64,000 nt of DNA. Source: an uncultured Mollicutes bacterium (GTDB lineage Bacteria; Bacillota_I; Bacilli_A; ML615J-28; CAG-313). Where the stretch lies: assembly GCA_900548675.1 (NCBI GenBank), contig URLJ01000002.1, positions 87,493 through 151,492 on the forward strand, in the 5' to 3' direction. Position numbers and translations under genes: made by a program. Under the pieces are notes generated by a model that was not told the DNA's origin, searched no databases, and saw only the letters and a list, made by a program, of their open reading frames with translations. This document shows, one piece after another, positions 7,013-63,081 of the stretch (the stretch's first letter is position 1; each line of letters opens with the position of its first letter).

Positions 7013-7030
7013 TGAAACCTCTTTAATTAT

Positions 7031-7294
7031 TTAATTTTTAAGAAGTTCTAAAAGTTCATCATATATTTCGGCAGGAACTGGTATTTCTAAATAGCGATCT
7101 AACAATTTTTTCTTTTGCGCAGTTGTGATGACGGCTTTATCCTTTTTCAAATAAGCACCATGACCACGAACCTTACCAGTGGTATCGATACATATCGTGT
7201 TTTCAGGAGTTCTTACAATCCTAAACATCTCTTGTTTAGGAAGTTGTTCTGATGTCGCAATACATTTTCTTAAAGGAATTTTTCGTTCTTTCAT
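7031..7294 (-). CDS. ylxR: YlxR-family RNA-binding protein (DUF448)
   Basis: PLRKCIATSEQLPKQEMFRIVRTPE.. in the conserved nusA-ylxR-ylxQ-infB context. Confidence 0.8.
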   Translation of the reverse strand: MKERKIPLRKCIATSEQLPKQEMFRIVRTPENTICIDTTGKVRGHGAYLKKDKAVITTAQKKKLLDRYLEIPVPAEIYDELLELLKN

Positions 7295-7302
7295 ACTATC
7301 AC

Positions 7303-8391: not shown

Positions 8392-8401
8392 AATATTCCT
8401 C

Positions 8402-8893
8402 CTAATTCATTTTAATTGCTAATCTTATTTTCGCAATTAAACGGTTTGGTATTTCTACTTCATATTTAAATTGTTTAATTAAAGCATTAATAATTATTTT
8501 TTCATCATCGGCATATAATAAATCGCCTTCAAATTCTTTATATTCATTCTTTTTAACAGGTATCTTTTCATATGTTTTTACATTAACATACTTACCAATA
8601 GCGGCTTTTACATCACGGCTATTTTTTAATTCTCTTTCTAAACCTGGTGATGTTACTTCTATACAATACTCTGTATCAATAGGATCTATCTCATCTAGCT
8701 TTTCACTTACTTTTTCACTTACTGTAACAGTATCATCAATTGAAAGCGTACTTGTACTATTATCTATTACAAATGAAATAATTCGTGTTCCAAATTCTTT
8801 TCTTTCTTCTACTTCTAAAAGTTCAAATCCTAATTCTTCTATGATACCTTTTAACTCTGTATAAAGTTTTTGTTCTAATGCGTTCATAAGCAT
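8402..8893 (-). CDS. rimP: Ribosome maturation factor RimP
   Basis: 163 aa and the first gene of the nusA-infB operon. The fold is RimP-like. Confidence 0.8.
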   Translation of the reverse strand: MLMNALEQKLYTELKGIIEELGFELLEVEERKEFGTRIISFVIDNSTSTLSIDDTVTVSEKVSEKLDEIDPIDTEYCIEVTSPGLERELKNSRDVKAAIGKYVNVKTYEKIPVKKNEYKEFEGDLLYADDEKIIINALIKQFKYEVEIPNRLIAKIRLAIKMN

Positions 8894-20911: not shown

Positions 20912-23900
20912 CTATTTATCTTTTAATATATCGTAAGCAGATGTATCAAATATATCTTTTTCTTGCTTTTCAACTGTTAATGAACTTGTTGCATCATATA
21001 ACAAGAAACGGAATTTTTCTTTACCTGCAGTATAATATATAAATTTAGGATTGCTTGGTGAAAAATAATCTACATCAACTGTATAATCATGTAAATCTTC
21101 TTTAGCAGTAGATGTTGCTTCATCAAGTGCAACACAACTATAGTTTTTACCACCACCATAATACGCAATCGCACCATTAACATAAGTCTCACCATTATAA
21201 CTAGCTAATATTTTTTCATGTGATATATCTTCATCATAGTATTCTTTTAATAGACTACTGAAATCCAAATTGAACCCTATTTTAGAAGCCACCGTTGTAA
21301 GGTTACCATTACTATCTTTGATCCCTTCAATTAAAGTGTCACTATTTACAGAAGATACCTTTTTCCAATCATAGAAACGTACATCATCTTTTAATCTCAA
21401 TAATGCAGGATAACTAGTACCGCTAATTCCACCCCAGCCAAGTTCACTGCCAAATTTAAAGTTATCACTGAAGTCCCAACCATGGAGAACTAATCCCCCA
21501 AACATCGCTTCAAGACCTATGCTGAATAATCCGGCATTCATAAATACACAGTTTTGCACCGTGATATCTGTTAGAATATAATTATTGTAAAATTTTTCAT
21601 CTTTATAATTATTATTATCAATTACATAGTTTTTAGTGCCATTACTTAAGTATGGTGATGCATCATCATAATAACTTACGTTGGTAATAGCATCTTGTGT
21701 CGTACTAATTGTTTTATTTGTAACACGTGTTGTTTTCATCACTTGGTTTGTACCAATCTTTAATAAGAATTCACGAGCATTAGTAAAAAGTGTTTTTGAG
21801 AAAGTAGCAGTTATGCGGTAATCACTAGGATTAAAGGTAGTATCGGTATGAGCTTTACCAAAAACTCTAACTGCAGTTCTACCATTATTTATTCTTGAGT
21901 AAGAAACATTACAATTATCGCCAACTATTTCTAAAACAGTACCACAATAATCTAAATTAGTTAAATCATATTCGCCATTACTTGAGGCGATGCTTTCATC
22001 ATTACATCCTTTTAATTCAACATTATGAATATTTATATTATCCTTTAAAACTGCAAAAATAATATTATCTTGAGATTTTACTGCTAAGTTGTTTGGAGCA
22101 CCGTTATAATCTTTATTGTATCTTACTAAATCAATTGGGCCACGATAAACGCGCGTACCAAATTTTTTATTTAACAATTGTGTCAAATTGTCTGCTGATA
22201 TAGCGTAACCATTTCCATATAAATCTGTTGATATTTCTACTGCGTAACGAATAACTGCATCTTTTAATTTACCAGTATTTTTATAATATGTAACATCACA
22301 AGTAGGATCCATCGTTGTAAGACAACTTAATGCATACTTTTCATAATTATCATCTTTAGTCATTTTTTCTAGTTCTGGTGCTAGCATAATATTGTTTTTC
22401 AAAACCATTACGTATTCTTTATCTTCAATATTCTTGCTGCAAACCATCAACTCTTCATATGTAGATATATTTATACCATTACTTAAAACATTTAATTTGA
22501 TGCTAGTTGAAGTATTGAGGTTATTCTTATCGATAACATCTACTTCCACTAAGCCTGTTTTACCTCCTAAATAGAAATAACCATCTTCACCAATTGTAAG
22601 GATATCTTCATCACTACTTGTTAAAATTAATTTAGAATAATCTATTTTTTCACTACCATTAGATAACATTCCAATTAAAGGTAGTCTCATTTTATGATCT
22701 TTATCAAACGGAATTAAACTCTTTAAAGATGTAGCACTATCAAATGAATAATATCCAAGGGTAGGAATTTCAGTGAATGATCCACTAACAACTTTAACAG
22801 GCATCTCATCATTATCTATTGCGAGAGATACATAATTGCTGTAGATTTTAACTTCTAGTGTTTCTACATCAAATAATTTTACCCCCGTGTCTTTTTGTGT
22901 GATTGAACATGTTAATTTAAATACACCTTCTAATTTATTAGTAGGTTTTATAAAACATCCAAAATAATAATTATTAGTTAATGGATTAACTTCCGCAAGT
23001 GTTATAACTTCAGCAGCATCTTTTTCTGATAAGCTAAATTTAACACTTACCTTTGATATATCTTTTATATCTGTATATAAAGTTGCAACTCTTGTATTTG
23101 AGGCATTCTTTCTCATCAATACTTCTAAGTTTTTATCAGCGTAATTAGCATATGTTAATAATGTTTCTTCAGTATGGTTTATACCAATAATAACTGCAAC
23201 ATAATTAACATCACTAACCTTTACAAGGATTACATCAAGTTTATCACCTATTTGAATAGCGTATGTCTTTTCATTAGATAAGAAATCTTTAGGATTATTA
23301 AATTCATACTCACCTGTTTGATCATCCCATGAAAGAGCTTTTCTTGTCATAGTAGAACCGAGAACAACAATTTTATTATTACCATCTAAATCAGTTACTT
23401 TAAGAGCACCTATGCTTGTTGGCGCTAACTCTTCTTTTTCAGTACTTCCAAAGCCACTTACTTTAACAGTTGTCTTATAAGCATATTTCAAATCTAGTGA
23501 TTCATCTTTTTTTATTATTTCAGTCAAATCTAAAACTTCAATCTCAGGTTCAGGATGAACAACAGGTTTTTCATGTGGTGTTACCTTCACTATAATAGCA
23601 CTTAAAGTCGTACCTTTTACATCGTCGCGAACTACTAATAATTCTAGTTCATAACCTATTTTTATTCCTTTAGTTTTTTCATTAGTTAAGAAATTACTAG
23701 GATTACTAAATGTATATACACCTTTTTCTTTATCCCAAGTAAGAGCGTTAGTTGAAGCGGTTGATCCAATTACTACTACTCTATTTTCACCATTTAAATC
23801 TGTCGCTTTAAAACAACCAGTTTCACTTGCTGCATCATCATCATAACTGAGGTTATTCCCCCAACTTTCAACTAAAACAGTTGTACGATATGCTTTCTTT

Positions 23901-24064
23901 AAATTTTCATTAGAATCTAAAGCACATATTTCTTGTAAACTTTTCCCTATTTTAGCAGGTTCTTTAAAACCTTTATCACCACTATTTCCTCCGCCACATC
24001 CTACAGCTACTACTGCTAGTACTAATACTAACAACATTCCTAAAATTTTTTTGATGTTTTTCAT
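20912..24064 (-). CDS. Large lipoprotein (1050 aa) with an internal duplicated roughly 100-aa module and a beta-helix-like C-terminal region
   Basis: Lipobox MKNIKKILGMLLVLVLAVVAVGCGGG. The units ...KATDLNGENRVVVIGSTASTNALTWDKEKGVYTFSNPSNFLTNEKT.. and ..KVTDLDGNNKIVVLGSTMTRKALSWDDQTGEYEFNNPKDFLSNEKT.. are repeated. Asn/Gly-rich beta-helix-like repeats follow. Confidence 0.8.
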   Translation of the reverse strand: MKNIKKILGMLLVLVLAVVAVGCGGGNSGDKGFKEPAKIGKSLQEICALDSNENLKKAYRTTVLVESWGNNLSYDDDAASETGCFKATDLNGENRVVVIGSTASTNALTWDKEKGVYTFSNPSNFLTNEKTKGIKIGYELELLVVRDDVKGTTLSAIIVKVTPHEKPVVHPEPEIEVLDLTEIIKKDESLDLKYAYKTTVKVSGFGSTEKEELAPTSIGALKVTDLDGNNKIVVLGSTMTRKALSWDDQTGEYEFNNPKDFLSNEKTYAIQIGDKLDVILVKVSDVNYVAVIIGINHTEETLLTYANYADKNLEVLMRKNASNTRVATLYTDIKDISKVSVKFSLSEKDAAEVITLAEVNPLTNNYYFGCFIKPTNKLEGVFKLTCSITQKDTGVKLFDVETLEVKIYSNYVSLAIDNDEMPVKVVSGSFTEIPTLGYYSFDSATSLKSLIPFDKDHKMRLPLIGMLSNGSEKIDYSKLILTSSDEDILTIGEDGYFYLGGKTGLVEVDVIDKNNLNTSTSIKLNVLSNGINISTYEELMVCSKNIEDKEYVMVLKNNIMLAPELEKMTKDDNYEKYALSCLTTMDPTCDVTYYKNTGKLKDAVIRYAVEISTDLYGNGYAISADNLTQLLNKKFGTRVYRGPIDLVRYNKDYNGAPNNLAVKSQDNIIFAVLKDNINIHNVELKGCNDESIASSNGEYDLTNLDYCGTVLEIVGDNCNVSYSRINNGRTAVRVFGKAHTDTTFNPSDYRITATFSKTLFTNAREFLLKIGTNQVMKTTRVTNKTISTTQDAITNVSYYDDASPYLSNGTKNYVIDNNNYKDEKFYNNYILTDITVQNCVFMNAGLFSIGLEAMFGGLVLHGWDFSDNFKFGSELGWGGISGTSYPALLRLKDDVRFYDWKKVSSVNSDTLIEGIKDSNGNLTTVASKIGFNLDFSSLLKEYYDEDISHEKILASYNGETYVNGAIAYYGGGKNYSCVALDEATSTAKEDLHDYTVDVDYFSPSNPKFIYYTAGKEKFRFLLYDATSSLTVEKQEKDIFDTSAYDILKDK
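23164..23881 (-). repeat. Intragenic duplication of two roughly 300-bp units separated by about 400 bp
   Basis: Visible at the DNA level (compare 23340-23420 with 23740-23820) and at the protein level. Confidence 0.55.
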
Positions 24065-24084: not shown

Positions 24085-24819
24085 CTAATTTTCAAATATT
24101 TCCATAAATTGATCTTCAAGTGTTTTGTTTGGATTATTCTTTTTAAATTCACTAATTACAATATCTGCAACTATTTCGCCACCATTTATGATATAAGCTC
24201 TATCACACGTTTTTTCAACAGCATCTAAATTATGAGAAGAATACAAAACAGCATTACCTTTTTCTTTGTAGACTTCCATATAATCCCTTAGAGCTTTACT
24301 AGTCTGTGGATCAAGACCAGTGAGTGGTTCATCTAAAAGCCACAATTTAGGACGATGGATTAAATTAGCCATTAAACAAATTTTTTGACGCATTCCATGT
24401 GAATAAGAAGAAATTAAATTATAAATTGCATCTCCAAGCTTAAAGACTTGTTGCATTTCTTCAATTCGCTCTTTTCTTTTGTCTTCTGCTACACCATGGA
24501 TATCTGCAATAAAATTTATATATTCAAACCCTGTCATCTTTTCAAACATAGCATGATTATCAGGAACATAACCAATTTCATTTTTAGCTTTTAAATCATC
24601 TTTAACAATATCATAACCGCATATCTTAATACTACCTTTATCAAAAGAGAAAAAACCTGTTAAACACTTTATGGTAGTAGATTTTCCTGCCCCGTTTTTA
24701 CCAAGTAACCCAACTATTTCTCCTGCATAACAATCGATATTTATGTCTTTTACCGCATAGGTCGTTTGTTTATTATATTTTTTATATAAACCTTTTATTT
24801 CTACTATTTTTTCTTTCAT
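24085..24819 (-). CDS. ABC transporter ATP-binding protein (ABC-2/BcrA-like)
   Basis: Walker A GKNGAGKSTT, signature variant YSHGMRQK, Walker B LWLLDEPLTGLD. Confidence 0.85.
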   Translation of the reverse strand: MKEKIVEIKGLYKKYNKQTTYAVKDINIDCYAGEIVGLLGKNGAGKSTTIKCLTGFFSFDKGSIKICGYDIVKDDLKAKNEIGYVPDNHAMFEKMTGFEYINFIADIHGVAEDKRKERIEEMQQVFKLGDAIYNLISSYSHGMRQKICLMANLIHRPKLWLLDEPLTGLDPQTSKALRDYMEVYKEKGNAVLYSSHNLDAVEKTCDRAYIINGGEIVADIVISEFKKNNPNKTLEDQFMEIFEN

Positions 24820-24829
24820 TTACTTTCAC

Positions 24830-25573
24830 CTAAATAACATTAACTAATATTTTAATTGTTTTTTCTTCATTTGAAATATTACCATTTTCATCAAGTAAAA
24901 CATATTTATAAGTTACGCTAACATAACTACTTCCTTTTTTAACTCCTGTTACTTTCCAACTGAACTTATCTGTAATAACTAGCACTTGTTCAGTTACGTT
25001 TTGAATGCTGAATTTACCCGTACCTAAAAGATAATCTCTTCCAATATTATATTTTTCTTGTAATTCTTCATCAAGTGGTAAATATTCAGTTATCGTGGTT
25101 TCTTCACCCACATTAATTGTGATTTCTCCTTTTTCAAAGTCAATTATTTTTACATCTTCTTTATTCATGTCTTTAGTTTTAATTCCCAAGGGTTCTGAGC
25201 AAATAAAATTAAAAGTTACAGCATCACTTCGATCCATCGCATTAACTCTTACCTTTATCCATCCGAGTGATTTAGGAATTACTACGCCATCATCCGTGAC
25301 TTCTACTTTTGCCTGCGGTTTGTTTTCAACTTCTTCGATAGTATATTTTAGTGTAATATTTACATCTTTTGGCATCACTATCGCCTCTATTTTTAGAAGA
25401 GGGTTATTTTCTAATTCTTTAGCGATATCCACTACCCTTGTGTGACGGCCATCTACACTAACACTTGTAACAGTAGGATTCACAACTATTGCGGTTTTTT
25501 TAATTACAACACTTGTTGTAAAAATTAAAATGATTGGAATTATTAGTATTAGAATTATTATTTTTTGTTTCAT
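24830..25573 (-). CDS. Membrane-anchored extracellular protein (N-terminal TM plus a beta-rich Ig-like ectodomain) associated with the ABC transporter
   Basis: MKQKIIILILIIPIILIFTTSVV is a TM helix. The remainder is beta-rich. The gene is wedged between the permease and the ATPase with 7-10 nt gaps. Confidence 0.5.
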   Translation of the reverse strand: MKQKIIILILIIPIILIFTTSVVIKKTAIVVNPTVTSVSVDGRHTRVVDIAKELENNPLLKIEAIVMPKDVNITLKYTIEEVENKPQAKVEVTDDGVVIPKSLGWIKVRVNAMDRSDAVTFNFICSEPLGIKTKDMNKEDVKIIDFEKGEITINVGEETTITEYLPLDEELQEKYNIGRDYLLGTGKFSIQNVTEQVLVITDKFSWKVTGVKKGSSYVSVTYKYVLLDENGNISNEEKTIKILVNVI

Positions 25574-25579
25574 AACTCT

Positions 25580-27250
25580 TTACCCCTCAAATTCATGATA
25601 TCTTTTATTTAACGATTTTATCAAATATAGATACGATAATACTAATATTACAACTACGCTAATAGTTAAAAAGCCGATGGATAACCACATAGCTAAAGCG
25701 CTAGATTTAAGAGTTGAAACCACTACGGATAGTGTGAGTGAACCTCCTCCTAAAATAATTGATACGATAAGACCTAGGAAGATAACAACCGATGTTCCAA
25801 CATTTTCTTCCGCATCATCACTATTAGTTATTTTAGGATTATTTAAGTCTTTTCTCGTCGCAAACATTATTTCTGATGCCGATAAGAGACTCGCAATTAT
25901 AAATATAACTAAGGCTTGATACCACGTAATGAAGCCTGTTGCGAGAAGTATTACATCACTTGCGATAAGGCCTATTTCCGAAACAATTAAACAGAACAAA
26001 ACTTTACTTAAAACGATTTGTTTACCACTAACTGGTAATGTTTTTAAAATATAAAGCATCTTTCCATCTCTTGAAATATTTGTGGTACAAAAAGTATTTG
26101 TTATTACAACAAACATTGTTATTACAAATATCGCTAATTCATAATCACAATTCACTAAAGCAATACCAGGTATTTTAATCATCATTTCTTTCATAATATT
26201 AACACAAACATATATCATAAATGGCAGAGTAACTGTCGTCGCAAGATATTGGAATGCATAACTTGGTGTTCTTAAAACCACCTTAAATTCTTTTATAATT
26301 AGGCTTGTAATAATATTCTGTTTTTTATATCTTACTTTAGGTGTTTTTTCTCTTTTATTTATGCCTTCAAGTTTGATTTGAAGTAGTTTTTTGTATACTA
26401 CACCAACAATAAAAACACTAAGAACAACACACAAGAAAGATAGTCCAATAATTATCATTAATGATAAAAAATAATTTTGATTTATCATCATTTTCGCAAA
26501 TAAATTAATCGGATATGCACGATCACATATTTTTTCTATTACTGCTATTCGCCGCAATTCAAAGAAGTATGTCATATCACCACTTTGAAGTAGGGCGGTT
26601 AAAACATTTAAAAATATACTATATAAATAAAAACCAATACCCAAGATTATTACATATATTACTAGATGGAGGATAAATTTCTTTTCAATAAAATCCATCA
26701 CATAATTGTATCCAATTGATAATACGGCGGCAATTCCACATGATACCATTGGAATTAAGAAAAGGTGAAGGACAATTGAAGAATAGAACGCTACTCCACT
26801 TGCATAACTACTGATATTAGCCACTACAATGCTGACGGGTATTATGATTATAGCAGTCGATGCTATTTGAGATAAATATATTTTAATTAACTTATACAAG
26901 AAAATGCTCTTTGAACTAATTGGATGAACCATAAGAACTTCCATATCTTTTGTACTCATCGTTGTCGTATATATCTTTTTCACACCCAGTAAAACGTTAA
27001 TTACGATGATTCCTCCATAAGTTATGGTAAGTATTTCAAATAATCTTCTTATTTCATTTGATGGATCATCAAACGTTTTTGTAATATACATTTTAGTAAA
27101 TTTATAATACACATATATAAATGTTCCATAAAGAATGAGGATTAAAAGGATTGTGGATATGTATCCTAATATATCTTTTTTATTTCTTTTAAAAATTGAT
27201 AAAAACCTTTCAGTAAAATCTTTTTTAAATAAAATTAGTACTTTATTCAT
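25580..27250 (-). CDS. Polytopic ABC transporter permease (about 12 TM; ABC-2 type exporter-like)
   Basis: 556 aa of alternating hydrophobic helices. It is the first gene of the operon and is followed closely by the ATPase. Confidence 0.6.
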   Translation of the reverse strand: MNKVLILFKKDFTERFLSIFKRNKKDILGYISTILLILILYGTFIYVYYKFTKMYITKTFDDPSNEIRRLFEILTITYGGIIVINVLLGVKKIYTTTMSTKDMEVLMVHPISSKSIFLYKLIKIYLSQIASTAIIIIPVSIVVANISSYASGVAFYSSIVLHLFLIPMVSCGIAAVLSIGYNYVMDFIEKKFILHLVIYVIILGIGFYLYSIFLNVLTALLQSGDMTYFFELRRIAVIEKICDRAYPINLFAKMMINQNYFLSLMIIIGLSFLCVVLSVFIVGVVYKKLLQIKLEGINKREKTPKVRYKKQNIITSLIIKEFKVVLRTPSYAFQYLATTVTLPFMIYVCVNIMKEMMIKIPGIALVNCDYELAIFVITMFVVITNTFCTTNISRDGKMLYILKTLPVSGKQIVLSKVLFCLIVSEIGLIASDVILLATGFITWYQALVIFIIASLLSASEIMFATRKDLNNPKITNSDDAEENVGTSVVIFLGLIVSIILGGGSLTLSVVVSTLKSSALAMWLSIGFLTISVVVILVLSYLYLIKSLNKRYHEFEG

Positions 27251-27393: not shown

Positions 27394-27447
27394 AAAAAAA
27401 GCAGTTCTATTAAATACCCTTTAAAAGGATATATAGAACTGCTTTTT
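27394..27447 (-). terminator. Rho-independent terminator of the RHH/SPFH/TIR operon
   Basis: Stem agcagttctat...atagaactgct flanked by A- and T-tracts, immediately after the stop of the TIR gene. Confidence 0.7.
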
Positions 27448-27451
27448 ATTA

Positions 27452-30421
27452 TTAATTTTCTATTATGACTAGTGTTTGACCACCACTAACTGTTTCACCT
27501 TTTTTTACCCATATTTCTTTAACTGTCCCTGATATTGGTGAAACAATTTCGTTTTTTAACTTCATTGCTTCTAAAGATAATAGCGTACTTCCTTTAGGCA
27601 CTTTATCACCAACATTTACGGCTATATCTAATACTTCTCCTGCCATTGGGGCTTTAATTATTTCTCTTACTTTTTCTAAGGATGGTTCACTATTAAAATC
27701 CACATCAGTATCAACAATTATGATAGGTGCTATACCATGTCTTTTTTGATATACAAGTGATGATTCTTTTTCACCTTGGTTAGAAACGACGAAACATTTA
27801 TCAATAACAGTTGGGAAAGGAGTTCTTAAAAAGTAACTACCTTTTTTATCAAGTGTCGCACATCCTTTAGCAACAGCATAATCTGTAGGTCTTTTTACAT
27901 CTACTTGATCGATATAACAAGGTATCGTTACTTTGTCAATAGTGTTTTCACAAACACATCCAAGATATAGATTATTGCTGTTGTTTGCGGTATTAGGAGT
28001 AGTGTATATACTATTATCTACATTCATAGGTAGTATATATGTATCTAGTGCGTTGTTAAAGGCTTTTTTATAAAATTCATTATTAAGCCAACTGCGTACA
28101 TCAGAATATTCATAGTTATTAGGTTTAATCATTTTACCATCAATCATTCGTTCACGACACATTGAGGCATATTCTTGTCTATCAAGAATAGTTTCACTTA
28201 ATAAAATATATGCACTTTCTTTTCCTTCATCATTTTCAGTTTTTTGAACTGTCCATTTAATTGGCATTACTTTAAAGTAATAAGTTTTACCAGCCTCAAG
28301 AGCAGTTTGATCTGATGTGTAGTAATTACTAATATTAACATCAGCTACTACTTTTTCGTAACGTGCTCCGTCACTTCCCAAATAGTAACCATCTTTATCA
28401 GGGGTATCACTTGTTATTTTAACATATTCTTTTTTTAAATCTTGAGGATATTCTCCAAAATAAATGGTTTCACCATCTTTTTTTCCACCAATAGATGCCC
28501 ATTTAACTTTTAAAATGATTGTAGCAGTTTTATCTTCTGATACGGTATATTTATCAACCACTAATTCATTTGATTCACCTATACCTGGTTTTTTAGCTAT
28601 TAAATGACCATTTACTAATTTAACTAATCCTCCATTACCATCGTATGTAATATCAATCTTAAAGCCTAGTGACATAAGACTTGTAATTGCTTCTTTATAA
28701 TAATTGTTATAAAGTTTAAGTTTAGCATCATACATACCATTCTTTATTTTACCCTTAGCGAAGAGCCCAAGTTTGGCATCTTTTTGTGGTATTACTTCTA
28801 TTACTGTTTCAGTAAATCCCGCTTGTTTTAATCTTTCATTTTCTTCTGTGATAAATTTTTGTCTTTCTGTATAACGCTTTTCTTTTACTTCTCGTTGTTT
28901 TAATTCTTTATAAGTGTTGTTAACTTCTACAAATAATGCTCTACCTTCATCATCTAAATCAATATTCGATAATAAATTATATGCAGTTTTAACATCGCCA
29001 TCGGCAAATGCCTTTCTTACTTTCGTATATGTCTCTTGCATATATTGATATGTATTCTGGCAATCTTCAAGTTTATCTTTAGCATCACAGAAATCATCTG
29101 CTTGAGTTAATTCTTCAATTGCCTCTTTGTAATTATTAGTTAAAATATAATTTACTGCAGCATCATAATGTTTTTTACATTCATTATTTTTTATTATCTT
29201 ATTGCTGATTGACAGTAACTCTTCTTTATATTCAGCGTCCGCAAAAGTTAAAGCTTTTTTAAAGTTTTTATTATTTGTAATATCACTCGTGTAATTAACT
29301 AAATCGCCGGCTTTAGTAAGTGATAAGTCGATTAACATTAATAAAAAGTAAGCTTTGGCATTTTCAGGATCAATATTTAAAATATTATCAAGAACTTCTT
29401 TGGCTTTAGGATAATCTTCATCACTGATTAAAATTTCACTTCTTCTAAGTAAAGGAGATACGTTATTATTGATATTTGTGTTTTGAATTGTTTGTTCCAC
29501 CACTATTTGCTTTTTAATGGTTCTATCAAAGATTTTATCAATACCTCTTACAAGATCTTGAATAAATCCTAATTTATTCATATCCTGAGCTTGGAACAAC
29601 GCTAATTCTTCTGGTAACTCGTAAGCTTCCATATCTCTGTAACATGGTATAATATATCTTTTTTGGTCCGTATCATCCATCATACTGATGAATCTACTCC
29701 ACTCATTTTTAACCCATACCGCATTATAATATTCTGGCTTTGTTCCTATTACAAGCATAACTTTAGCACTTGATAAGGCAGCATATATATATGGTTCATA
29801 CTTAGCACCAGGAATACTTTCAAGGGTTATTTTTGAGAAGAATACCCGGTATCCTTTACTTACTAATTCATCATATACTTCTTGGGCTATTACAGAATCC
29901 CTCGTTCTTTTTCCTTCAGAACTTGTTTCTTTATAACAAATGAATATATCATAAGGCTCTTCTTTTTGTGATATCATCAATATCTCTTTTTGCAATCTAT
30001 TGATTTCTTCAGCTTCTGCTTGATATATTCTTTTAGCTACCACGTCACTGTTTTCAATGGCTGCTAAATAATCAATGTCATCAAAAATTGATTTTAATTG
30101 TGTTCTATGACATGTAGGAATCTTTCTATTTGTAGCTTTATCATCAACATATTCTATTCCATATCTACAAAGTAATAATCCCCAGTGAGCTTCTGCATCT
30201 TTAGGATTTTCATTAATAATGTTTTCATATGTTATGATAGCTTTATCAAACATATTATTTAGTCTTAAACTATTAGCTCTGTTATGAAGGGCGGCTAGCT
30301 TTTCATTATCTACAATATTAGGAACCGTTTGTTCTCTTTCACAATATTCACATCTAGCCGTTGTGGCTCCTTCTGGAACGTTAATTATAGCCCCACATGC
30401 TTTACATTTAAATTCTCTCAT
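27452..30421 (-). CDS. Multidomain protein (989 aa). Domains in order: N-terminal C4 zinc ribbon, TIR domain, helical/TPR-like region, unknown beta-rich region, and a C-terminal biotinyl/lipoyl (BCCP-like) domain.
   Basis: Zinc ribbon: CKACG...CEYCE. TIR: YDIFICYKETSSEGKRTRDSVIAQEVYDELVSKGYRVFF...AKVMLVIGT...YYNAVWVKNEWSRF (about aa 155-290). C-terminus: IKAPMAGEVLDIAVNVGDKVPKGSTLLSLEAMKLKNEIVSPISGTVKEIWVKKGETVSGGQTLVIIEN, which matches the AccB biotinyl-domain consensus including EAMK. Confidence 0.7.
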   Translation of the reverse strand: MREFKCKACGAIINVPEGATTARCEYCEREQTVPNIVDNEKLAALHNRANSLRLNNMFDKAIITYENIINENPKDAEAHWGLLLCRYGIEYVDDKATNRKIPTCHRTQLKSIFDDIDYLAAIENSDVVAKRIYQAEAEEINRLQKEILMISQKEEPYDIFICYKETSSEGKRTRDSVIAQEVYDELVSKGYRVFFSKITLESIPGAKYEPYIYAALSSAKVMLVIGTKPEYYNAVWVKNEWSRFISMMDDTDQKRYIIPCYRDMEAYELPEELALFQAQDMNKLGFIQDLVRGIDKIFDRTIKKQIVVEQTIQNTNINNNVSPLLRRSEILISDEDYPKAKEVLDNILNIDPENAKAYFLLMLIDLSLTKAGDLVNYTSDITNNKNFKKALTFADAEYKEELLSISNKIIKNNECKKHYDAAVNYILTNNYKEAIEELTQADDFCDAKDKLEDCQNTYQYMQETYTKVRKAFADGDVKTAYNLLSNIDLDDEGRALFVEVNNTYKELKQREVKEKRYTERQKFITEENERLKQAGFTETVIEVIPQKDAKLGLFAKGKIKNGMYDAKLKLYNNYYKEAITSLMSLGFKIDITYDGNGGLVKLVNGHLIAKKPGIGESNELVVDKYTVSEDKTATIILKVKWASIGGKKDGETIYFGEYPQDLKKEYVKITSDTPDKDGYYLGSDGARYEKVVADVNISNYYTSDQTALEAGKTYYFKVMPIKWTVQKTENDEGKESAYILLSETILDRQEYASMCRERMIDGKMIKPNNYEYSDVRSWLNNEFYKKAFNNALDTYILPMNVDNSIYTTPNTANNSNNLYLGCVCENTIDKVTIPCYIDQVDVKRPTDYAVAKGCATLDKKGSYFLRTPFPTVIDKCFVVSNQGEKESSLVYQKRHGIAPIIIVDTDVDFNSEPSLEKVREIIKAPMAGEVLDIAVNVGDKVPKGSTLLSLEAMKLKNEIVSPISGTVKEIWVKKGETVSGGQTLVIIEN

Positions 30422-30435
30422 ATATATCCTCTTTT

Positions 30436-31134
30436 CTATTTAGCACTGCGTATTTTAATACTTCTTTCTTTTACTAAAGATATGACTTTATCTATTTGAT
30501 ACGATACCTTTTCATAATCATTATCATAGTATGCTGATTTCAAGGAGGAATAATTATCATTGATTTCATCTTCGATATCTTCTACAATGCTCGTAGAAAT
30601 AGGATCAGTGTAAATTATCAATTCATATAGTTTAGCGAATTTTTCCCTTAATGGTTCGTATTTAAACTCATTATTAAATACTTTTATATCATCCCTTAAT
30701 GTTTTCATAAACTCTTGTTTAGCCTTTGCTTCTGCTTCATTTTCCTTTAAGGCATCTTTATAAAATTCCACTTTAATAATGCTCATTACTTCTAATCCTA
30801 CGATTATTACATTAACTATTAATACGAACCAAAGCGGTACATTAAAGAAATTATTAAAAATCGTTACAAGTATTGTTATAATAAAAGTTACGACAAGATA
30901 TATCAAACTAACCCTTACAAGAGGGATGCCGTATACCTTAATTTTTAAGTTTTTTTCTTTGTAAAAAGCTGCATAAAATGTATATAATTGAGCCAAAATA
31001 GCTACCATCATAAAGATATATGAGGTAATATAAACACTTAAATTTACATAGTTAAAAGGGATTATGAAATAGCATAAAGAGAATATTAAAGCAATTATAC
31101 CTAACGCAATAATAAATCTAATTTTATTTTTCAT
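30436..31134 (-). CDS. Membrane protein (four N-terminal TM helices plus a cytoplasmic charged/coiled C-terminal domain), the middle gene of the operon
   Basis: Hydrophobic helices within aa 8-120. The C-terminal region is rich in E/K/D and Y. It is separated from both neighbours by 2-14 nt. Confidence 0.55.
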   Translation of the reverse strand: MKNKIRFIIALGIIALIFSLCYFIIPFNYVNLSVYITSYIFMMVAILAQLYTFYAAFYKEKNLKIKVYGIPLVRVSLIYLVVTFIITILVTIFNNFFNVPLWFVLIVNVIIVGLEVMSIIKVEFYKDALKENEAEAKAKQEFMKTLRDDIKVFNNEFKYEPLREKFAKLYELIIYTDPISTSIVEDIEDEINDNYSSLKSAYYDNDYEKVSYQIDKVISLVKERSIKIRSAK

Positions 31135-31136
31135 AT

Positions 31137-32864
31137 TTATTCACCCTTTTTTGTTCCGCAATTAGGACAGAATGGTGTCGTTATATTTTTCATCCCACAT
31201 TCACAATCCCAGGTATTATTTGTTGTAGGTTTCTTACAGCCACACTCTGGGCAGAATGGTGTCGTTATATCACTTTTTCCGCAGTTAGGACAAACCCAAG
31301 TATTGTTCGGTGTCGGTTTTTTACTTCCACAATTAGGGCAGAAAAGTGTTGTTACTTCACTGTGACAATTAGGACAAGTCCATTTATTTTGACTTACTGG
31401 TTTTTCTTCTTTAAGATTTAACGTTGGATTGACCGTGTTTTTAACAGTACTAGCTACTTCACCCATTACTCCAAGGCCTACTCCTAAACCTACCATATCA
31501 TTCATCAATCCTGTCACTCCCCCTACTTGACCTTGATTTTCCATAGCAGCTTTAGCAACTTGACGTTGTGTCTCTTGTTGATATGTGTAACCTTTCATTT
31601 GCATTTCCTTAGCTTCAGCTTCAGCCTTTAGGCGATACGCTTCAGCAGATGCTTGCGCTTTGATAATTTCTTCTTGAGCGGCCGTTTGTGCCTCAACCAT
31701 TTTACGTTGTTGTGCGGCTTCGGCTTCAGCTTTTTTGATGCGTTCTTCTGCCACAAGCAAATATTTTTCAGCATATTGTTCTTTTAAACGTTTGAAGTTT
31801 GGATCATCATCTGGTGTCATAATTGTTGTAATAAAGAATTCTGGCATTATCAAGCCATATGCTTCGAGGGCTCTATTAATTTCATTCTTCAAAACATTTG
31901 ATATTTCTTCAATGTGTTCATCTACTTCTAAAATATTGATTGCTTCTTCTCTTATTGTCTTAGCCAAGAAAGACTTAACTTTAGCGGTAACTAATGCTTT
32001 GAATTTTCCTTTCATTCCCACATTTGAGTAATCACTTCCCATTAAATCATTTTGATTTAATTCACCTGTTGTACCTACTACTTTTATTAAAAGTTTTCTT
32101 GGATCATTAACTTTAATATTAAACTCACCACAGGCACCTAATTCAACATGCATGCCTGTTGCGGGATCAAACATTCTTATACGTGTATCAGTTCCCCATT
32201 TTATGCCCATTTGCGTTGTTAAATTAACATAGTAAACCTCTGCATGGAACATATTTGTATCTGATACAGTTGGAAGCTTATAAGTTTTATTTAATAATGG
32301 AATATTATCAGTATTAAGTGTGTATCTACCAGCTCCGAAGGAATCAAGAGCTTTACCATCTTTTAAGAATACAGCTTCTTGTGATTCATGAACAATAAGT
32401 TGTGTTCCCAAATTGAAATCTTCAACAGGATGTTTCCATACTAAGACATCATTAGGTCCTTCATATTTTATTACTGATATTATGCCATCTTTAGTCAAAT
32501 TTTGTTTTAAAATTTGTTCTTTAACATTAATTGTTGTATCACATAAAGGGCAAGTATATGTTGTAGCATTTTTATCTACCGTTAACTCGCAAGAACAAGT
32601 TGGACATTTGATTTCAGCAGTGTTTTTTAACGCATCTTCAGTTGCAAGTTTTTCTTTACAAATAGGACAAACAGCTTTGTTTCCTTTTGATTGATCATAA
32701 ACCACAGTGTTCTTACAATGAGGACAAACAATTGATTTCATCTTATCCTTTTTAATATTTATTACCATACCACAAGTACATTGGATATTCTTTTTTGAAA
32801 AAATTGATGTTGATGCTTCATTATAAGCACCGCAATGTGGGCATTCAATTACAAATTTTGCCAT
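31137..32864 (-). CDS. SPFH/band-7-like protein of the YdjI / 'virion core protein' (PRK13665-like) family, flanked by three N-terminal and three C-terminal C4 zinc ribbons
   Basis: Core HESQEAVFLKDGKALDSFGAGRYTLNTDNIPLL...VNLTTQMGIKWGTDTRI and an Ala/Glu/Gln coiled coil. The N-terminus has three CxxC..CxxC units. The C-terminus repeats W.CPNCG....ITTPFCP.CG.KKPT.NNT three times. Confidence 0.6.
   Translation of the reverse strand: MAKFVIECPHCGAYNEASTSIFSKKNIQCTCGMVINIKKDKMKSIVCPHCKNTVVYDQSKGNKAVCPICKEKLATEDALKNTAEIKCPTCSCELTVDKNATTYTCPLCDTTINVKEQILKQNLTKDGIISVIKYEGPNDVLVWKHPVEDFNLGTQLIVHESQEAVFLKDGKALDSFGAGRYTLNTDNIPLLNKTYKLPTVSDTNMFHAEVYYVNLTTQMGIKWGTDTRIRMFDPATGMHVELGACGEFNIKVNDPRKLLIKVVGTTGELNQNDLMGSDYSNVGMKGKFKALVTAKVKSFLAKTIREEAINILEVDEHIEEISNVLKNEINRALEAYGLIMPEFFITTIMTPDDDPNFKRLKEQYAEKYLLVAEERIKKAEAEAAQQRKMVEAQTAAQEEIIKAQASAEAYRLKAEAEAKEMQMKGYTYQQETQRQVAKAAMENQGQVGGVTGLMNDMVGLGVGLGVMGEVASTVKNTVNPTLNLKEEKPVSQNKWTCPNCHSEVTTLFCPNCGSKKPTPNNTWVCPNCGKSDITTPFCPECGCKKPTTNNTWDCECGMKNITTPFCPNCGTKKGE
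31140..31376 (-). repeat. Three tandem roughly 80-bp direct repeats encoding the C-terminal zinc-ribbon units
   Basis: The DNA-level unit recurs as ...ggacagaatggtgtcgttatat... / ...gggcagaatggtgtcgttatatc... / ...gggcagaaaagtgttgttac... Confidence 0.6.
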
Positions 32865-32868
32865 ATTA

Positions 32869-33072
32869 TTAATTCTCCTCCATATCTGAAATAACTAAAT
32901 TTTTTAATGAAAATTCTAAACACATAATCATAATCTCATTTCTCGTTCTACCAGTTTTTTCGGCAACCAAATCTATTTCTTTAGCAAGCTCACTTGGCAT
33001 TCTTGTAGAAACGACAATTGATTCACCTTTGTATTTTTTAGATTGAATCTCAAGTTTCACTTTACTTTCCAT
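32869..33072 (-). CDS. Ribbon-helix-helix (CopG/Arc-like) DNA-binding protein, the likely autoregulator of the operon
   Basis: MESKVKLEIQSKKYKGESIVVSTRMPSELAKEIDLVAEKTGRTRNEIMIMCLEFSL has a beta strand followed by two helices. The SD AAAGAGG lies 8 nt before the ATG at 33072. The longer ORF-track N-terminus has no SD. Confidence 0.6.
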   Translation of the reverse strand: MESKVKLEIQSKKYKGESIVVSTRMPSELAKEIDLVAEKTGRTRNEIMIMCLEFSLKNLVISDMEEN

Positions 33073-33094
33073 AACATTTACCTCTTTCATTAAC

Positions 33095-33123
33095 ATTATA
33101 ATACAAATGTATACAAATGTCAA
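33095..33123 (-). promoter_or_regulatory. Perfect consensus sigma-A promoter (-35 TTGACA, 17 nt, -10 TATAAT) driving the RHH/SPFH/TIR operon
   Basis: The minus strand reads TTGACAtttgtatacatttgtatTATAAT. The TSS is predicted about 15 nt upstream of the RHH ATG. Confidence 0.7.
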
Positions 33124-33154
33124 AGATAAAGCATTACAAATGTATACATTTGTA
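33101..33154. promoter_or_regulatory. Operator-like repeats: a tandem direct 10-mer (ATACAAATGT x2) in the promoter spacer and a perfect 20-bp palindrome (TACAAATGTATACATTTGTA) just upstream of the -35
   Basis: 33101-33120 is atacaaatgtatacaaatgt. 33135-33154 is tacaaatgtatacatttgta, which is self-complementary. The same ACAAATGT half-site occurs four times. Confidence 0.65.
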
Positions 33155-33194
33155 TTATATGCAGTATTATTTAAATGATTACAAACTAAAATAA

Positions 33195-33237
33195 AATAAA
33201 AAAGAATTTAAAATCCTCAAGGACTAAAAATTCTTTT
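33195..33237 (-). terminator. AT-rich hairpin and U-tract after trmH (weak terminator)
   Basis: aaaaagaattt...aaattcttttt with an inner tcc/gga stem. The stem is AT-rich, so confidence is low. Confidence 0.35.
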
Positions 33238-33983
33238 TACTTTAAATAATAATACATAAGAATGCTTGAAGCTACCGCAACATTAAGAGACTCGACATCA
33301 TTATGCATAGGAATTATAACAGAGGTAGTTGCATTATTTAGGAATTCCTTTGAAACGCCATTCGCCTCATTACCGACTATTATTGCGAAAACTGAAGTAG
33401 GGATAACCTCATCTAAAGTTCGTTTAGCATCTAAACTAGATACTACAATGTCAAAATCATTATTCTTTAAATAATTAATTATCTTACCCTTTTCTTCTAT
33501 AATTACTGGTATTTTAAACAAAGCTCCTTGTGTAGCTCTCACCACTTTATCATTATATGCATCTACAGTATCACTTGTTAAAATGACCGCATCCATCCCT
33601 AAAGCAGCCGATGTTCTTATAATTGTACCTAGATTACCAGGATCTTGAATGTTATCAAGAACTATTATTTTTTTAAAATCTTTACTAATGTAGTTTTTAC
33701 ATTTCTCTACAACCCCAATAATACCTTGTGTAGTAACAACATTTGAGAGTTTTTTAATTATTTCTTTTGTCACGATATATATATTAACACTTTGATAGTT
33801 TTTGATATCAATGGCATCAATATCTAAGATATACACTTCTTTTAGTAAACCATGTTTTAAGGCTTCTTCTACTAAATGATAACCTTCTACTAAATATGTA
33901 TTAGTCTGTTCGCGATACTTTTTTTCTTTTAGTTTGGCCGTTTCTTTTATTTTATTATTTTGTAAAGATGTAATTTTTTCCAT
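33237..33983 (-). CDS. TrmH/SpoU-family RNA 2'-O-methyltransferase
   Basis: SpoU methylase motifs ILDNIQDPGNLGTIIRTSAALG, FAIIVGNEANGVS and IPMHNDVESLNVAVA. Confidence 0.85.
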   Translation of the reverse strand: MEKITSLQNNKIKETAKLKEKKYREQTNTYLVEGYHLVEEALKHGLLKEVYILDIDAIDIKNYQSVNIYIVTKEIIKKLSNVVTTQGIIGVVEKCKNYISKDFKKIIVLDNIQDPGNLGTIIRTSAALGMDAVILTSDTVDAYNDKVVRATQGALFKIPVIIEEKGKIINYLKNNDFDIVVSSLDAKRTLDEVIPTSVFAIIVGNEANGVSKEFLNNATTSVIIPMHNDVESLNVAVASSILMYYYLK

Positions 33984-34724: not shown

Positions 34725-34925
34725 TTATTTAGTTGCGATTTGAGATTGAGCCATAGAAACTAAACGACGAGTAATTTCTCCACCAACTGTACCATTTTGA
34801 CGAGCAGTTGCATCTGGTCCTAAATGTACGCCAAGTTCGTTAGCGATTTCATATTTCATTTGAGAAAGAGCATTTTCTGCACCTGGAACAGCTAATCTGT
34901 TTTTGCTGTAAGATGAATTATTCAT
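34725..34925 (-). CDS. Small acid-soluble spore protein, alpha/beta type
   Basis: [60 protein letters not shown] closely matches the SspA/SspB consensus. Confidence 0.92.
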
Positions 34926-63021: not shown

Positions 63022-63081
63022 TGTTAAAATCCCTCCTATTATATGACAAAAACCACGAGACAACTCGCGGTTTTTAATTTA

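What the first reader, a model, noticed from the sequence alone, without database searches (positions are those of the whole stretch)
33095..33154. Textbook promoter interlocked with operator repeats for the RHH protein
The promoter is an exact TTGACA-17-TATAAT. Its spacer is entirely made of a tandem direct repeat ATACAAATGT-ATACAAATGT. A perfect 20-bp palindrome TACAAATGTATACATTTGTA, with the same half-site, lies 11 bp upstream of the -35.

Four copies of one half-site in direct and inverted orientation match the typical binding-site layout for RHH dimers of dimers. This implies tight autorepression of a strong promoter, which is classic for toxic, inducible cargo.
Basis: seen in the sequence. 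Interest (0 to 1): 0.6.

Follow-up and report, generated by a model that had tools for sequence, protein, structure and literature searches.

The report
Self-repressing promoter of RHH regulator
A perfect-consensus promoter carrying four copies of a 10-bp palindromic box sits in front of a small ribbon-helix-helix gene, and the same box is kept at this position in about 80 other gut Firmicutes species, so it is almost certainly the regulator's own operator: a clean but ordinary kind of switch controlling an uncharacterised membrane/TIR gene cassette.

Summary
On the minus strand there is TTGACA(33123-33118)-17 bp-TATAAT(33100-33095). It is the only perfect promoter of this type in the 64 kb. 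The repeat ATACAAATGT x2 fills the spacer, and a perfect 20-bp palindrome lies 11 bp upstream of the -35.

The repeat unit is better described as a self-symmetric box, TACAWWTGTA, present four times (three exact, one 9/10).

Comparative evidence ties the box to the RHH gene:
- In 81 RHH loci, 103 of 107 exact boxes lie within 200 nt upstream of the RHH start.
- 78 of 81 loci have the box abutting the -10 of a near-consensus promoter.
- Seven related SPFH-membrane-TIR cassettes that lack the RHH gene have no box at their promoters (Fisher p = 2e-8).
- The invariant RHH residues V20, S22 and R24 alternate on the predicted beta-strand; S22 and R24 align with Arc's base-contacting residues.

Best explanation: RHH dimers bind the boxes and occlude a strong promoter. 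This gives negative autoregulation of a four-gene operon (RHH, Zn-ribbon SPFH, membrane protein, TIR/TPR protein) that ends at a terminator near 27400.

The core matches the CopY/BlaI 'cop box', but its extended consensus is not met and no such repressor is encoded in the window. Binding is inferred, not shown, and 'toxic, inducible cargo' is untested. This is a new member of a known kind.

The parts
33118..33123 (-). -35 hexamer TTGACA; its last four bases GACA are also the first four of box O2
   Evidence: TTGACA is 6/6 in 55 of 76 unique family promoters
33095..33100 (-). -10 hexamer TATAAT; predicted transcription start about 33088
   Evidence: the start site is inferred from standard -10 to +1 spacing and is not measured
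33102..33111 (.). Box O1 (TACATTTGTA in gene orientation). Promoter-proximal operator box, 1 nt from the -10, about -23 to -14. This is the family-wide conserved box.
   Evidence: 1.7-2.0 bits per core position; 1-nt gap to the -10 in 71 of 76 unique promoters
33112..33121 (.). Box O2 (GACATTTGTA, 9/10), adjacent to O1 with 10 bp centre to centre, overlapping the -35
   Evidence: boxes at offset -10/-11 in 9 of 76 unique promoters
33135..33144 (.). Box O3 (TACATTTGTA in gene orientation), 33 bp upstream of O1, about -56 to -47
   Evidence: offset -33/-34 recurs in 15 other unique promoters
33145..33154 (.). Box O4 (TACAAATGTA in gene orientation), adjacent to O3. O3 plus O4 form the perfect 20-bp palindrome.
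32869..33072 (-). 67-aa ribbon-helix-helix regulator gene (GAGG Shine-Dalgarno at 33084-33081)
   Evidence: Pfam RHH_1 19.9 bits against a cutoff of 20.5; hhalign to Arc 85%, E=6e-6; AF2 model plus Foldseek top hits Arc, AmrZ, TacA, CdbA, CopG; family alignment
31137..32864 (-). 575-aa zinc-ribbon / SPFH (Band_7_1) protein; starts 4 nt after the RHH stop
   Evidence: a homolog follows the RHH in 62 of 80 loci
30436..31134 (-). 232-aa multi-pass membrane protein; its start lies 2 nt after the SPFH stop
   Evidence: (homolog in 51 of 80 loci)
27452..30421 (-). 989-aa Zn-ribbon/TPR/TIR/DUF6273/biotinyl-lipoyl protein; last gene of the operon
   Evidence: homolog in 32 of 80 loci
27396..27447 (-). 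Intrinsic terminator closing the four-gene unit (hairpin followed by a U run)
   Evidence: -24.8 kcal/mol, z = -6.9
33192..33244 (-). Intrinsic terminator of the upstream SpoU-methylase gene; insulates the RHH promoter from read-through
   Evidence: -16.8 kcal/mol, z = -4.6, U run follows

Best explanation
The four TACAWWTGTA boxes are the operator of the 67-aa RHH protein encoded immediately downstream.

Proposed mechanism. Each box is a two-fold symmetric site for one RHH dimer, whose beta-ribbon (V20, S22, R24) enters the major groove. O1 and O2 lie 10 bp apart, fill the spacer and overlap the -35. Two dimers bound side by side would exclude RNA polymerase from an otherwise maximal-strength sigma-A promoter. 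O3 and O4 lie 33 and 43 bp upstream, about three helical turns away and on the same face. They act as an auxiliary high-affinity pair that raises local repressor occupancy or cooperativity.

Consequence. The RHH gene is the first cistron, so this is a negative-feedback loop. It holds the RHH / Zn-ribbon-SPFH / membrane / TIR-TPR operon (33088 to about 27396) at a low set level.

Shown: the sequence features, their conservation and position, their exclusive association with the RHH gene, and the RHH fold assignment.

Inferred: which protein binds, the stoichiometry, the sign of regulation, and any inducing signal.
For: 1. The promoter and boxes are exactly as described and are unique in the window.
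2. The RHH family is present in 181 species-level genomes, of which 80 loci were fetched.
3. In 793 kb of these loci plus the window, 103 of 107 exact boxes lie in the 200 nt upstream of the RHH start, which is 2% of the sequence.
4. 78 of 81 loci have a box (two or fewer mismatches) plus -10 plus -35. The three exceptions have an extra gene inserted between promoter and RHH. In L076 the box precedes the first gene of the operon.
5. Box positions carry 1.7-2.0 bits, while the surrounding intergenic DNA carries 0.1-0.5 bits. A promoter spacer has no reason of its own to be conserved.
6. Auxiliary boxes recur at fixed offsets of -10/-11 and -33/-34.
7. Discriminating test: seven independent SPFH-membrane-TIR cassettes lack an RHH gene. 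Their SPFH is 53-67% identical to the window's. None has a box in promoter position, and two carry a divergent XRE regulator instead. A control cassette with an RHH (L255) has the box in its spacer. Fisher p = 1.9e-8.
8. In 69 unique RHH sequences, V20, S22 and R24 are invariant while residues 19, 21, 23 and 25 vary. hhalign aligns S22 and R24 with Arc N11 and R13; by register V20 corresponds to Arc Q9, which lies just before the aligned block. These are base-contacting residues in the Arc-operator structure, from established knowledge of 1PAR.
9. Four same-species contigs show SNPs and indels only outside the boxes and hexamers.
10. The central dinucleotide is AA, TT or AT without polarity, as expected for a symmetric dimer site.
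11. Terminators on both sides make the operon depend on this promoter.
Against: - No binding or expression data exist; the assignment of the RHH as the binder is guilt by association.
- The RHH Pfam score is just under the gathering threshold (19.9 against 20.5), and the Foldseek and PDB-profile hits are individually weak.
- The same 10-bp core is the operator core of an unrelated repressor family, CopY/BlaI/MecI (PMC7253601).
- A promoter with three such boxes at the same -34 offset exists next to an XRE-type regulator on a contig with no RHH (L236). The motif is therefore not exclusive to this RHH.
- The full promoter-plus-box pattern also occurs about 20 times in metagenomes in unrelated contexts.
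- The O2 and O3/O4 boxes are not conserved family-wide, so the 'dimer of dimers' layout is specific to this and some other lineages.
Confidence: 0.8

Rival explanations
1. The boxes are bound by a trans-acting repressor other than the RHH. One candidate is a winged-helix BlaI/MecI/CopY-family protein, whose operator core is TACANNTGTA. Another is an XRE-type HTH protein. The RHH would then have a different target.
For: The core TACANNTGTA is the published cop box (PMC7253601). L236 shows three boxes with the same spacing beside a divergent XRE gene and no RHH.
Against: - None of the three exact window boxes fits the extended operator RNYKACANNTGTMRNY that the paper says is required (read). Only 5 of 97 exact family boxes fit it.
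- No Penicillinase_R-family gene is found among the operon genes, the neighbours within 8 kb, or the small ORFs of the window.
- Flanking genes differ from locus to locus, so no second regulator travels with the box.
- Cassettes without the RHH lack the box.
Confidence: 0.08
2. The conserved spacer sequence is an intrinsic promoter element, or is kept simply by common descent with the RHH gene, and no repressor binds it.
For: The box always sits in the same register with the -10, and its GACA/TGTA parts overlap promoter elements.
Against: - RHH proteins are only 50-78% identical and the surrounding intergenic DNA is not alignable, so neutral descent cannot keep 10 bp at about 2 bits.
- Extra boxes occur outside the promoter at fixed helical offsets.
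- Sigma-70-type promoters need no specific spacer sequence (established knowledge).
- The palindromic symmetry points to a dimeric protein.
Confidence: 0.05
3. The RHH does bind the boxes, but the outcome is not simple autorepression. It could act as a dual regulator or activator. Alternatively, the upstream O3/O4 pair could control a second start site: a TATAAT lies at 33159-33154 immediately 5' of O4, and distal promoter-like copies with a box exist in other loci.
For: A 24-nt inverted repeat includes a second TATAAT. Many Oscillospiraceae loci carry TTGTAA-17-TATAAT with a box in the spacer 77-88 nt upstream.
Against: In the window the best -35 for the upstream TATAAT is TTGTAA with a 19-nt spacer, which is poor (read). 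A box centred near -18.5 inside the spacer is a classic occlusion position.
Confidence: 0.06
4. The inverted repeats are remnants of a mobile element (MITE or IS ends), or an RNA hairpin acting in a read-through transcript.
For: Arms 33097-33120 and 33136-33159 are 92% complementary. Weak miRNA-like Rfam noise hits reflect the hairpin potential.
Against: - There are no other copies in the window.
- Most related loci have a single box and no long inverted repeat.
- The upstream gene has its own terminator.
- The repeats lie upstream of the predicted start site.
- No Rfam family comes near its gathering score.
Confidence: 0.01

Closest known systems
Phage P22 Arc repressor at Pant (Arc/MetJ RHH superfamily)
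   Same: Both are small RHH proteins (53 aa and 67 aa). The profile alignment to Arc gives 85% probability, with S22/R24 on Arc N11/R13. In both cases the operator lies between the -35 and -10 of a strong promoter, and two dimers bind adjacent sites about one helical turn apart on the same face (Arc facts are from established knowledge).
   Different: The Arc operator is a 21-bp site with TAGA-type half-sites, whereas this one uses 10-bp palindromic TACAWWTGTA boxes. This locus adds an upstream pair of boxes. The regulated cargo is a chromosomal membrane/TIR cassette, not phage immunity genes.
MetJ met-boxes and plasmid pMV158 CopG / pSM19035 omega operators
   Same: All use tandem short boxes, each bound by one RHH dimer with cooperative contacts between dimers. 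The MetJ box (AGACGTCT) is itself a palindrome, like this box. CopG and omega autoregulate from sites overlapping their own promoters (established knowledge).
   Different: Box length and spacing differ: 8 bp for MetJ and 7-bp heptads for omega, against a 10-bp period here. There is no co-repressor domain and no evidence of a co-repressor. The box sequence is unrelated.
CopY/CopR/BlaI/MecI 'cop box' operator (TACANNTGTA)
   Same: The 10-bp core is identical, and it is also often found in pairs around the promoter (PMC7253601).
   Different: The binder there is a winged-helix repressor, and none is encoded in the window. The extended consensus RNYKACANNTGTMRNY is met by none of the three exact window boxes and by only 5 of 97 exact family boxes. 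No copper ATPase or beta-lactamase/BlaR genes lie downstream. This looks like convergence on a simple palindrome.
RHH antitoxins of type II toxin-antitoxin systems (for example MazE/EndoAI, RelB-like)
   Same: The best PDB and NCBIfam sequence hits are RHH antitoxins (EndoAI E=0.014; RelB-like 16.7 bits). Both are the first gene of an autoregulated operon that may encode harmful proteins.
   Different: Only about 10 residues follow helix B, so there is no toxin-binding tail. The downstream gene is a 575-aa SPFH protein, not a small toxin. The NCBIfam score is far below its cutoff (16.7 against 50).

Membership tests
Ribbon-helix-helix (Arc/MetJ/CopG) DNA-binding superfamily | Sequence match to RHH profiles | tested here: met
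   Pfam RHH_1 scores 19.9 bits, E=7e-4, just under the 20.5 cutoff. Several family members carry a precomputed PF01402 hit. hhalign of the family profile against Arc gives 85% probability, E=6e-6. The PDB profile hits are EndoAI, Arc and a CopG-family protein.
Ribbon-helix-helix (Arc/MetJ/CopG) DNA-binding superfamily | Strand-helix-helix topology, about 45 residues, with a G-x-[ST]-type turn before helix B | tested here: met
   The AF2 model has mean pLDDT 80 (over 90 across the helices), with helices at 27-40 and 44-57 preceded by an extended segment at 18-26. The Foldseek top hits are almost all RHH proteins (Arc, AmrZ, TacA1, CdbA, CopG), although their E-values are above 1, as expected for so small a domain. 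The invariant T40-G41-R42-T43-R44-N45-E46 turn is seen.
Ribbon-helix-helix (Arc/MetJ/CopG) DNA-binding superfamily | Dimer forms an antiparallel beta-ribbon that reads the major groove | not testable with these tools
   Only indirect evidence: the invariant alternating V20/S22/R24 and the palindromic box.
Autoregulated RHH repressor-operator module | Operator overlaps the regulator's own promoter | tested here: met
   Boxes O1 and O2 occupy -33 to -14. This position is conserved in 78 of 81 loci.
Autoregulated RHH repressor-operator module | The operator travels with the regulator gene, not with the cargo | tested here: met
   78 of 81 RHH loci have the box, against 0 of 7 RHH-less cassettes; p=1.9e-8.
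Autoregulated RHH repressor-operator module | The protein binds the operator and represses transcription | not testable with these tools
   Needs EMSA or footprinting and reporter assays.
CopY/BlaI/MecI cop-box regulon | 10-bp core TACANNTGTA | tested here: met
   Three exact cores at 33102, 33135 and 33145.
CopY/BlaI/MecI cop-box regulon | Extended 16-bp operator RNYKACANNTGTMRNY (PMC7253601) | tested here: not met
   None of the three exact window boxes fits it (read), and only 5 of 97 exact family boxes do.
CopY/BlaI/MecI cop-box regulon | Cognate winged-helix (Penicillinase_R) repressor and copper-export or beta-lactam sensing genes in the operon | tested here: not met
   No such domain appears in the operon genes, the neighbours within 8 kb, or the small ORFs of the window. 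The rest of the genome is unseen.
Type II toxin-antitoxin RHH antitoxin | C-terminal toxin-binding extension and a small toxin gene immediately downstream | tested here: not met
   Helix B ends at residue 57 of 67. The next gene is a 575-aa SPFH protein. NCBIfam RelB-like scores 16.7 bits against a cutoff of 50.
Known anti-phage defence systems (PADLOC) | Match of cassette proteins to defence-system models | tested here: not met
   The RHH, SPFH, membrane and TIR proteins have no PADLOC hit. The TIR protein has only a sub-threshold resemblance to Thoeris ThcB4 (22.6 bits against 220).

The most novel reading that the evidence does not exclude
The RHH/TACAWWTGTA module is the dedicated off-switch of an undescribed SPFH-membrane-TIR conflict or envelope-stress system that is widespread in gut Firmicutes. 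The system would be kept silent by the RHH and released when the repressor is titrated or degraded, for example on phage infection or membrane damage. The same cassette has swapped regulators (RHH or XRE) between lineages. A further twist is possible: because the operator core is identical to the cop box, BlaI/CopY-type repressors of the host could cross-regulate it.
Probability: 0.2. Interest if true: 0.65.

Novelty: new member of a known kind. Interest (0 to 1): 0.35.

Why it matters
The finding supplies a precisely defined promoter and operator, with a family-wide consensus (TTGACA ... A-W-TACAWWTGTA-N-TATAAT). These belong to an uncharacterised RHH family found in at least 181 species-level genomes.

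It identifies the RHH family as the likely regulator of a conserved but unstudied four-gene cassette: a zinc-ribbon SPFH protein, a membrane protein and a TIR/TPR protein.

There are three practical uses:
- It gives a ready handle for reporter fusions and de-repression mutants to find out what the cassette does.
- It is a compact, strong and probably tightly repressible promoter for Firmicutes genetics.
- It is a warning that TACANNTGTA hits should not be annotated automatically as CopY/BlaI sites.

As a regulatory mechanism it adds nothing new in principle.

Tried and rejected
- PADLOC scan of eight neighbouring proteins: only generic ABC/AAA hits for an unrelated transporter, and nothing for the cassette.
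- Rfam scan of 32700-33400: only noise far below gathering scores.
- Plasmid collection, tblastn with the RHH: no match.
- Viral contigs: the 17-mer box plus -10 occurs in 117 stretches, none with an RHH or cassette gene. No RHH relatives were found in viral contigs. The module is therefore not phage-borne in that collection.
- Metagenome scan for the full promoter-plus-box pattern: 43 hits. Of these, 19 are followed by the RHH, plus one (L205) whose RHH is cut by the contig end. The remainder are heterogeneous: a phage portal-like gene, cysteine synthase, or no ORF. This is compatible with chance or with other regulators, and it shows the pattern is not exclusive.
- Literature searches found no description of this RHH family, operator or cassette. 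I searched for the box sequences, for SPFH with TIR and RHH, and for SPFH with anti-phage. The nearest functional literature is B. subtilis YdjI, an SPFH protein linking PspA to the membrane (PMC8581546, PMC9239133).
- Protein-operator covariation was looked for (for example a terminal A or G of the box against beta-strand variants), but there was no clean correlation. The G variant also creates an extended -10 TG, which confounds the test.
- A second promoter upstream of O3/O4 in the window was considered, but the -35 spacing is poor (19 nt).
- MITE or terminal-repeat and RNA-hairpin readings were rejected.

Full report
**1. The observation**

Reading the minus strand gives:

...TATAATACAAATGTATACATTTGTAATGCTTTATCTTTGACATTTGTATACATTTGTATTATAATGTTAATGAAAGAGGTAAATGTTATG.

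- The -35 TTGACA is at 33123-33118 and the -10 TATAAT at 33100-33095, with a 17-nt spacer.
- It is the only 12/12 site in the 9-kb promoter scan.
- It is the only exact TTGACA-N17-TATAAT in the 64-kb window (expected 0.09).
- On the + strand, ATACAAATGT sits at 33101-33110 and 33111-33120. The repeat covers the whole spacer and runs 3 nt into the -35.
- The perfect 20-bp palindrome is at 33135-33154, 11 bp from the -35.
- The exact 10-mer occurs three times in the window, all here. TACAWWTGTA also occurs three times, all here (expected 0.94 per 64 kb).
- A 20-bp perfect palindrome alone is not remarkable at 30% GC (expected 0.25 per window). The clustering and the conservation described below are what make the feature real.

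The gene is the 67-aa ORF at 33072-32869, with GAGG 8 nt upstream of its ATG.

**2. Anatomy, refined**

The 10-bp 'half-site' is itself a palindrome, TACAWWTGTA. The window has four boxes, written here in gene orientation:

| Box | Coordinates | Sequence | Notes |
|---|---|---|---|
| O1 | 33111-33102 | TACATTTGTA | 1 nt from the -10 |
| O2 | 33121-33112 | GACATTTGTA | 9/10; shares GACA with the -35 |
| O3 | 33144-33135 | TACATTTGTA | upstream pair |
| O4 | 33154-33145 | TACAAATGTA | upstream pair |

- With a start site inferred near 33088, the boxes cover about -33 to -14 and -66 to -47.
- Within each pair the centres are 10 bp apart. O1 and O3 are 33 bp apart, about three helical turns.
- 'Direct' versus 'inverted' differs only in the central AA/TT.
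- An intrinsic terminator of the upstream SpoU-methylase gene lies at 33244-33192 (-16.8 kcal/mol, z = -4.6).
- A strong terminator follows the fourth gene at 27447-27396 (-24.8 kcal/mol, z = -6.9).
- Gene junctions are 4 nt, 2 nt and 14 nt.
- Together these define one transcription unit: RHH, a 575-aa Zn-ribbon/SPFH (Band_7_1) protein, a 232-aa membrane protein, and a 989-aa Zn-ribbon/TPR/TIR/DUF6273/biotinyl-lipoyl protein.

**3. The protein**

- Pfam RHH_1 scores 19.9 bits, just under the 20.5 cutoff.
- hhalign of the family profile against Arc gives 85% probability and E=6e-6. It aligns V21-S22-T23-R24-M25-P26 with Arc F10-N11-L12-R13-W14-P15.
- The AF2 model (pLDDT 80) has an extended N-terminal segment and helices at 27-40 and 44-57.
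- The Foldseek top hits are Arc, AmrZ, TacA1, CdbA and CopG, with weak E-values as expected for so small a domain.
- In 69 unique family sequences V20, S22 and R24 are invariant, while residues 19, 21, 23 and 25 vary.
- This alternating pattern is what is expected for the DNA-facing side of an RHH beta-strand. S22 and R24 align with Arc N11 and R13. By register V20 corresponds to Arc Q9, which lies just before the aligned block. All three are base-contacting residues in the 1PAR structure (established knowledge).

**4. Comparative evidence**

The RHH family has relatives in 181 species-level genomes, and 80 loci were fetched. They come from Erysipelotrichales, Oscillospiraceae, Acutalibacteraceae, Christensenellaceae, Lachnospiraceae and others. 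Protein identity to the window is 49-78%.

- Cassette. The RHH is followed by an SPFH homolog in 62 of 80 loci, the membrane protein in 51 and a TIR/TPR protein in 32. The flanking genes differ from locus to locus.
- Promoter. Upstream regions show the same promoter almost everywhere. 78 of 81 loci have a box with two or fewer mismatches, a -10 and a -35. In 71 of 76 unique promoters the box lies 1 nt from the -10. In 37 of 76 the hexamers match 12/12.
- Information content. It is 1.7-2.0 bits at T-A-C-A and T-G-T, against 0.1-0.5 bits in the surrounding intergenic DNA.
- Specificity. Of 107 exact boxes in 793 kb, 103 lie within 200 nt upstream of the RHH start.
- Exceptions. Three loci have an extra gene between promoter and RHH. 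In L076 the box precedes the first gene of the operon.
- Auxiliary boxes. They recur at offsets -10/-11, -33/-34 and -77 to -88. The window has -10, -33 and -43.
- Orientation. The central dinucleotide is TT 31, AA 20, AT 19, so there is no polarity.
- Within species. Four contigs of the same species carry SNPs or an indel only outside the boxes and hexamers.

**5. The rival and the discriminating test**

TACANNTGTA is the published operator core of the CopY/CopR/BlaI/MecI winged-helix repressors. The same paper shows that the 10 bases are necessary but not sufficient, and extends the site to RNYKACANNTGTMRNY (PMC7253601).

- None of the three exact window boxes fits the extended site, and only 5 of 97 exact family boxes do.
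- No Penicillinase_R-type gene is found in the operon, within 8 kb, or among the small ORFs of the window.

To separate 'the box belongs to the RHH' from 'the box belongs to the cassette or a host factor', I fetched close SPFH homologs and their contigs.

- Seven independent cassettes have no RHH gene. Their SPFH is 53-67% identical to the window's. tblastn found no RHH, and the gaps hold no RHH-like small ORF.
- None of the seven has a box at a promoter. One lone exact box lies inside a coding region in L252.
- Two of them (L251, L253) carry a divergent XRE/HTH_3 regulator instead.
- The one fetched cassette that does have an RHH (L255) has TTGACAAACGTATACAATTGTAATATAAT.
- 78 of 81 against 0 of 7 gives p = 1.9e-8.

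The box therefore travels with the RHH gene.

**6. Caveats**

- No binding or expression data exist.
- The pattern TTGACA-N7-8-box-N-TATAAT occurs 43 times in the metagenome collection. Nineteen hits (plus one cut by a contig end) are followed by the RHH. The rest are in unrelated contexts.
- One of these, L236, has three boxes with the same -34 offset next to a divergent XRE gene and a Zn-ribbon membrane protein, with no RHH on the 2.7-kb contig.
- The motif is thus a simple palindrome that other regulators may also use.
- O2, O3 and O4 are lineage-specific additions, not family-wide features.

**7. Mechanism**

Most likely (about 0.8): each box binds one RHH dimer. The dimers on O1 and O2 occlude the spacer and the -35 of a maximal-strength promoter. 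O3 and O4, on the same DNA face, add cooperativity or raise local repressor concentration. Because the RHH is the first cistron, the operon is under negative feedback.

The protein has no sensor domain (helix B ends at residue 57 of 67). Induction, if it occurs, would need titration, proteolysis or a partner protein, and nothing here shows any of these.

The cassette has a TIR domain but matches no PADLOC model. It has only a sub-threshold resemblance to Thoeris ThcB4. The SPFH protein belongs to the same Pfam family (Band_7_1) that I recall for B. subtilis YdjI. YdjI, a band-7/SPFH protein, tethers PspA to the membrane (PMC8581546, PMC9239133).

**8. Comparison and novelty**

In mechanism this works like Arc at Pant, CopG at Pcr and the MetJ met-boxes. 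As a family it is an uncharacterised RHH clade with a previously undescribed operator consensus; no paper was found for it.

It is not a member of the CopY/BlaI regulon: the extended operator and the cognate repressor were tested and not met. It is not a type II antitoxin: there is no C-terminal tail and no small toxin gene.

Verdict: a real, well-conserved, textbook-style autoregulatory promoter and operator. It is a new member of a known kind. Interest is moderate to low for the mechanism and somewhat higher for the unknown cassette it controls.

Noticed in passing
L245-L254 (contigs fetched via SPFH homologs), compared with window 27452-33123: The same SPFH-membrane-TIR cassette exists without the RHH gene in seven independent contigs. 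Two of them (L251, L253) have a divergently transcribed XRE/HTH_3 regulator in its place, with different promoter sequences. The cassette has therefore swapped regulators.
   Followed up: partly
L236:1368-1520: Three TACAWWTGTA boxes, including one 34 bp upstream of a box inside a TTGACA-17-TATAAT promoter, lie between a divergent XRE HTH gene (1516-1833) and a 433-aa Zn-ribbon membrane protein. No RHH is on this 2.7-kb contig. It is unexplained whether an RHH encoded elsewhere or the XRE protein binds the boxes.
   Followed up: partly
L013, L014, L018, L020, L025, L028 and others, about 77-88 nt upstream of the proximal box: Many Oscillospiraceae and Acutalibacteraceae loci carry a second promoter-like copy (TTGTAA or TTGCAA, 17 nt, TATAAT) with its own box in the spacer, upstream of the main promoter. 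These may be tandem promoters under the same repressor.
   Followed up: no
window 27452-30421 (-): The last operon gene has an unusual architecture: an N-terminal zinc ribbon, TPR repeats, a TIR domain, DUF6273 and a C-terminal biotinyl/lipoyl-carrier domain. The TIR partners in related loci are very variable, carrying LRR, WD40/RCC1, SH3 or TM2 domains.
   Followed up: partly
window 33097-33159: The whole control region is a 24-nt/24-nt imperfect inverted repeat (92% complementary) that includes a second TATAAT at 33159-33154 on the gene strand, just 5' of box O4. The best -35 for it has a 19-nt spacer, so its function is doubtful.
   Followed up: partly
window 11514-20876 (-) and 20912-24064 (-): There is a giant 3120-aa ORF with MBG (YGX-type) domains, probably a surface protein. 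It is preceded by a 1050-aa lipoprotein-like ORF with no Pfam hit and by an ABC transporter module (24085-27250).
   Followed up: partly
window 34725-34925 (-), 62608-63063 (-), 3878-8893 (-): Host context: an alpha/beta-type SASP gene, a ComK-like gene and the rimP-nusA-ylxR-L7Ae-like-infB-rbfA cluster, at 30% GC. Identical RHH contigs come from human gut metagenomes, and the closest species-level relative is an Erysipelotrichales MAG (78% identity). The cassette sits in core chromosome, not in a prophage or plasmid.
   Followed up: partly
L252:1695-1704: A lone exact TACAAATGTA lies 9 nt inside the start of a TIR/LRR gene in an RHH-less cassette. It is probably chance, but the true start codon was not checked.
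   Followed up: no
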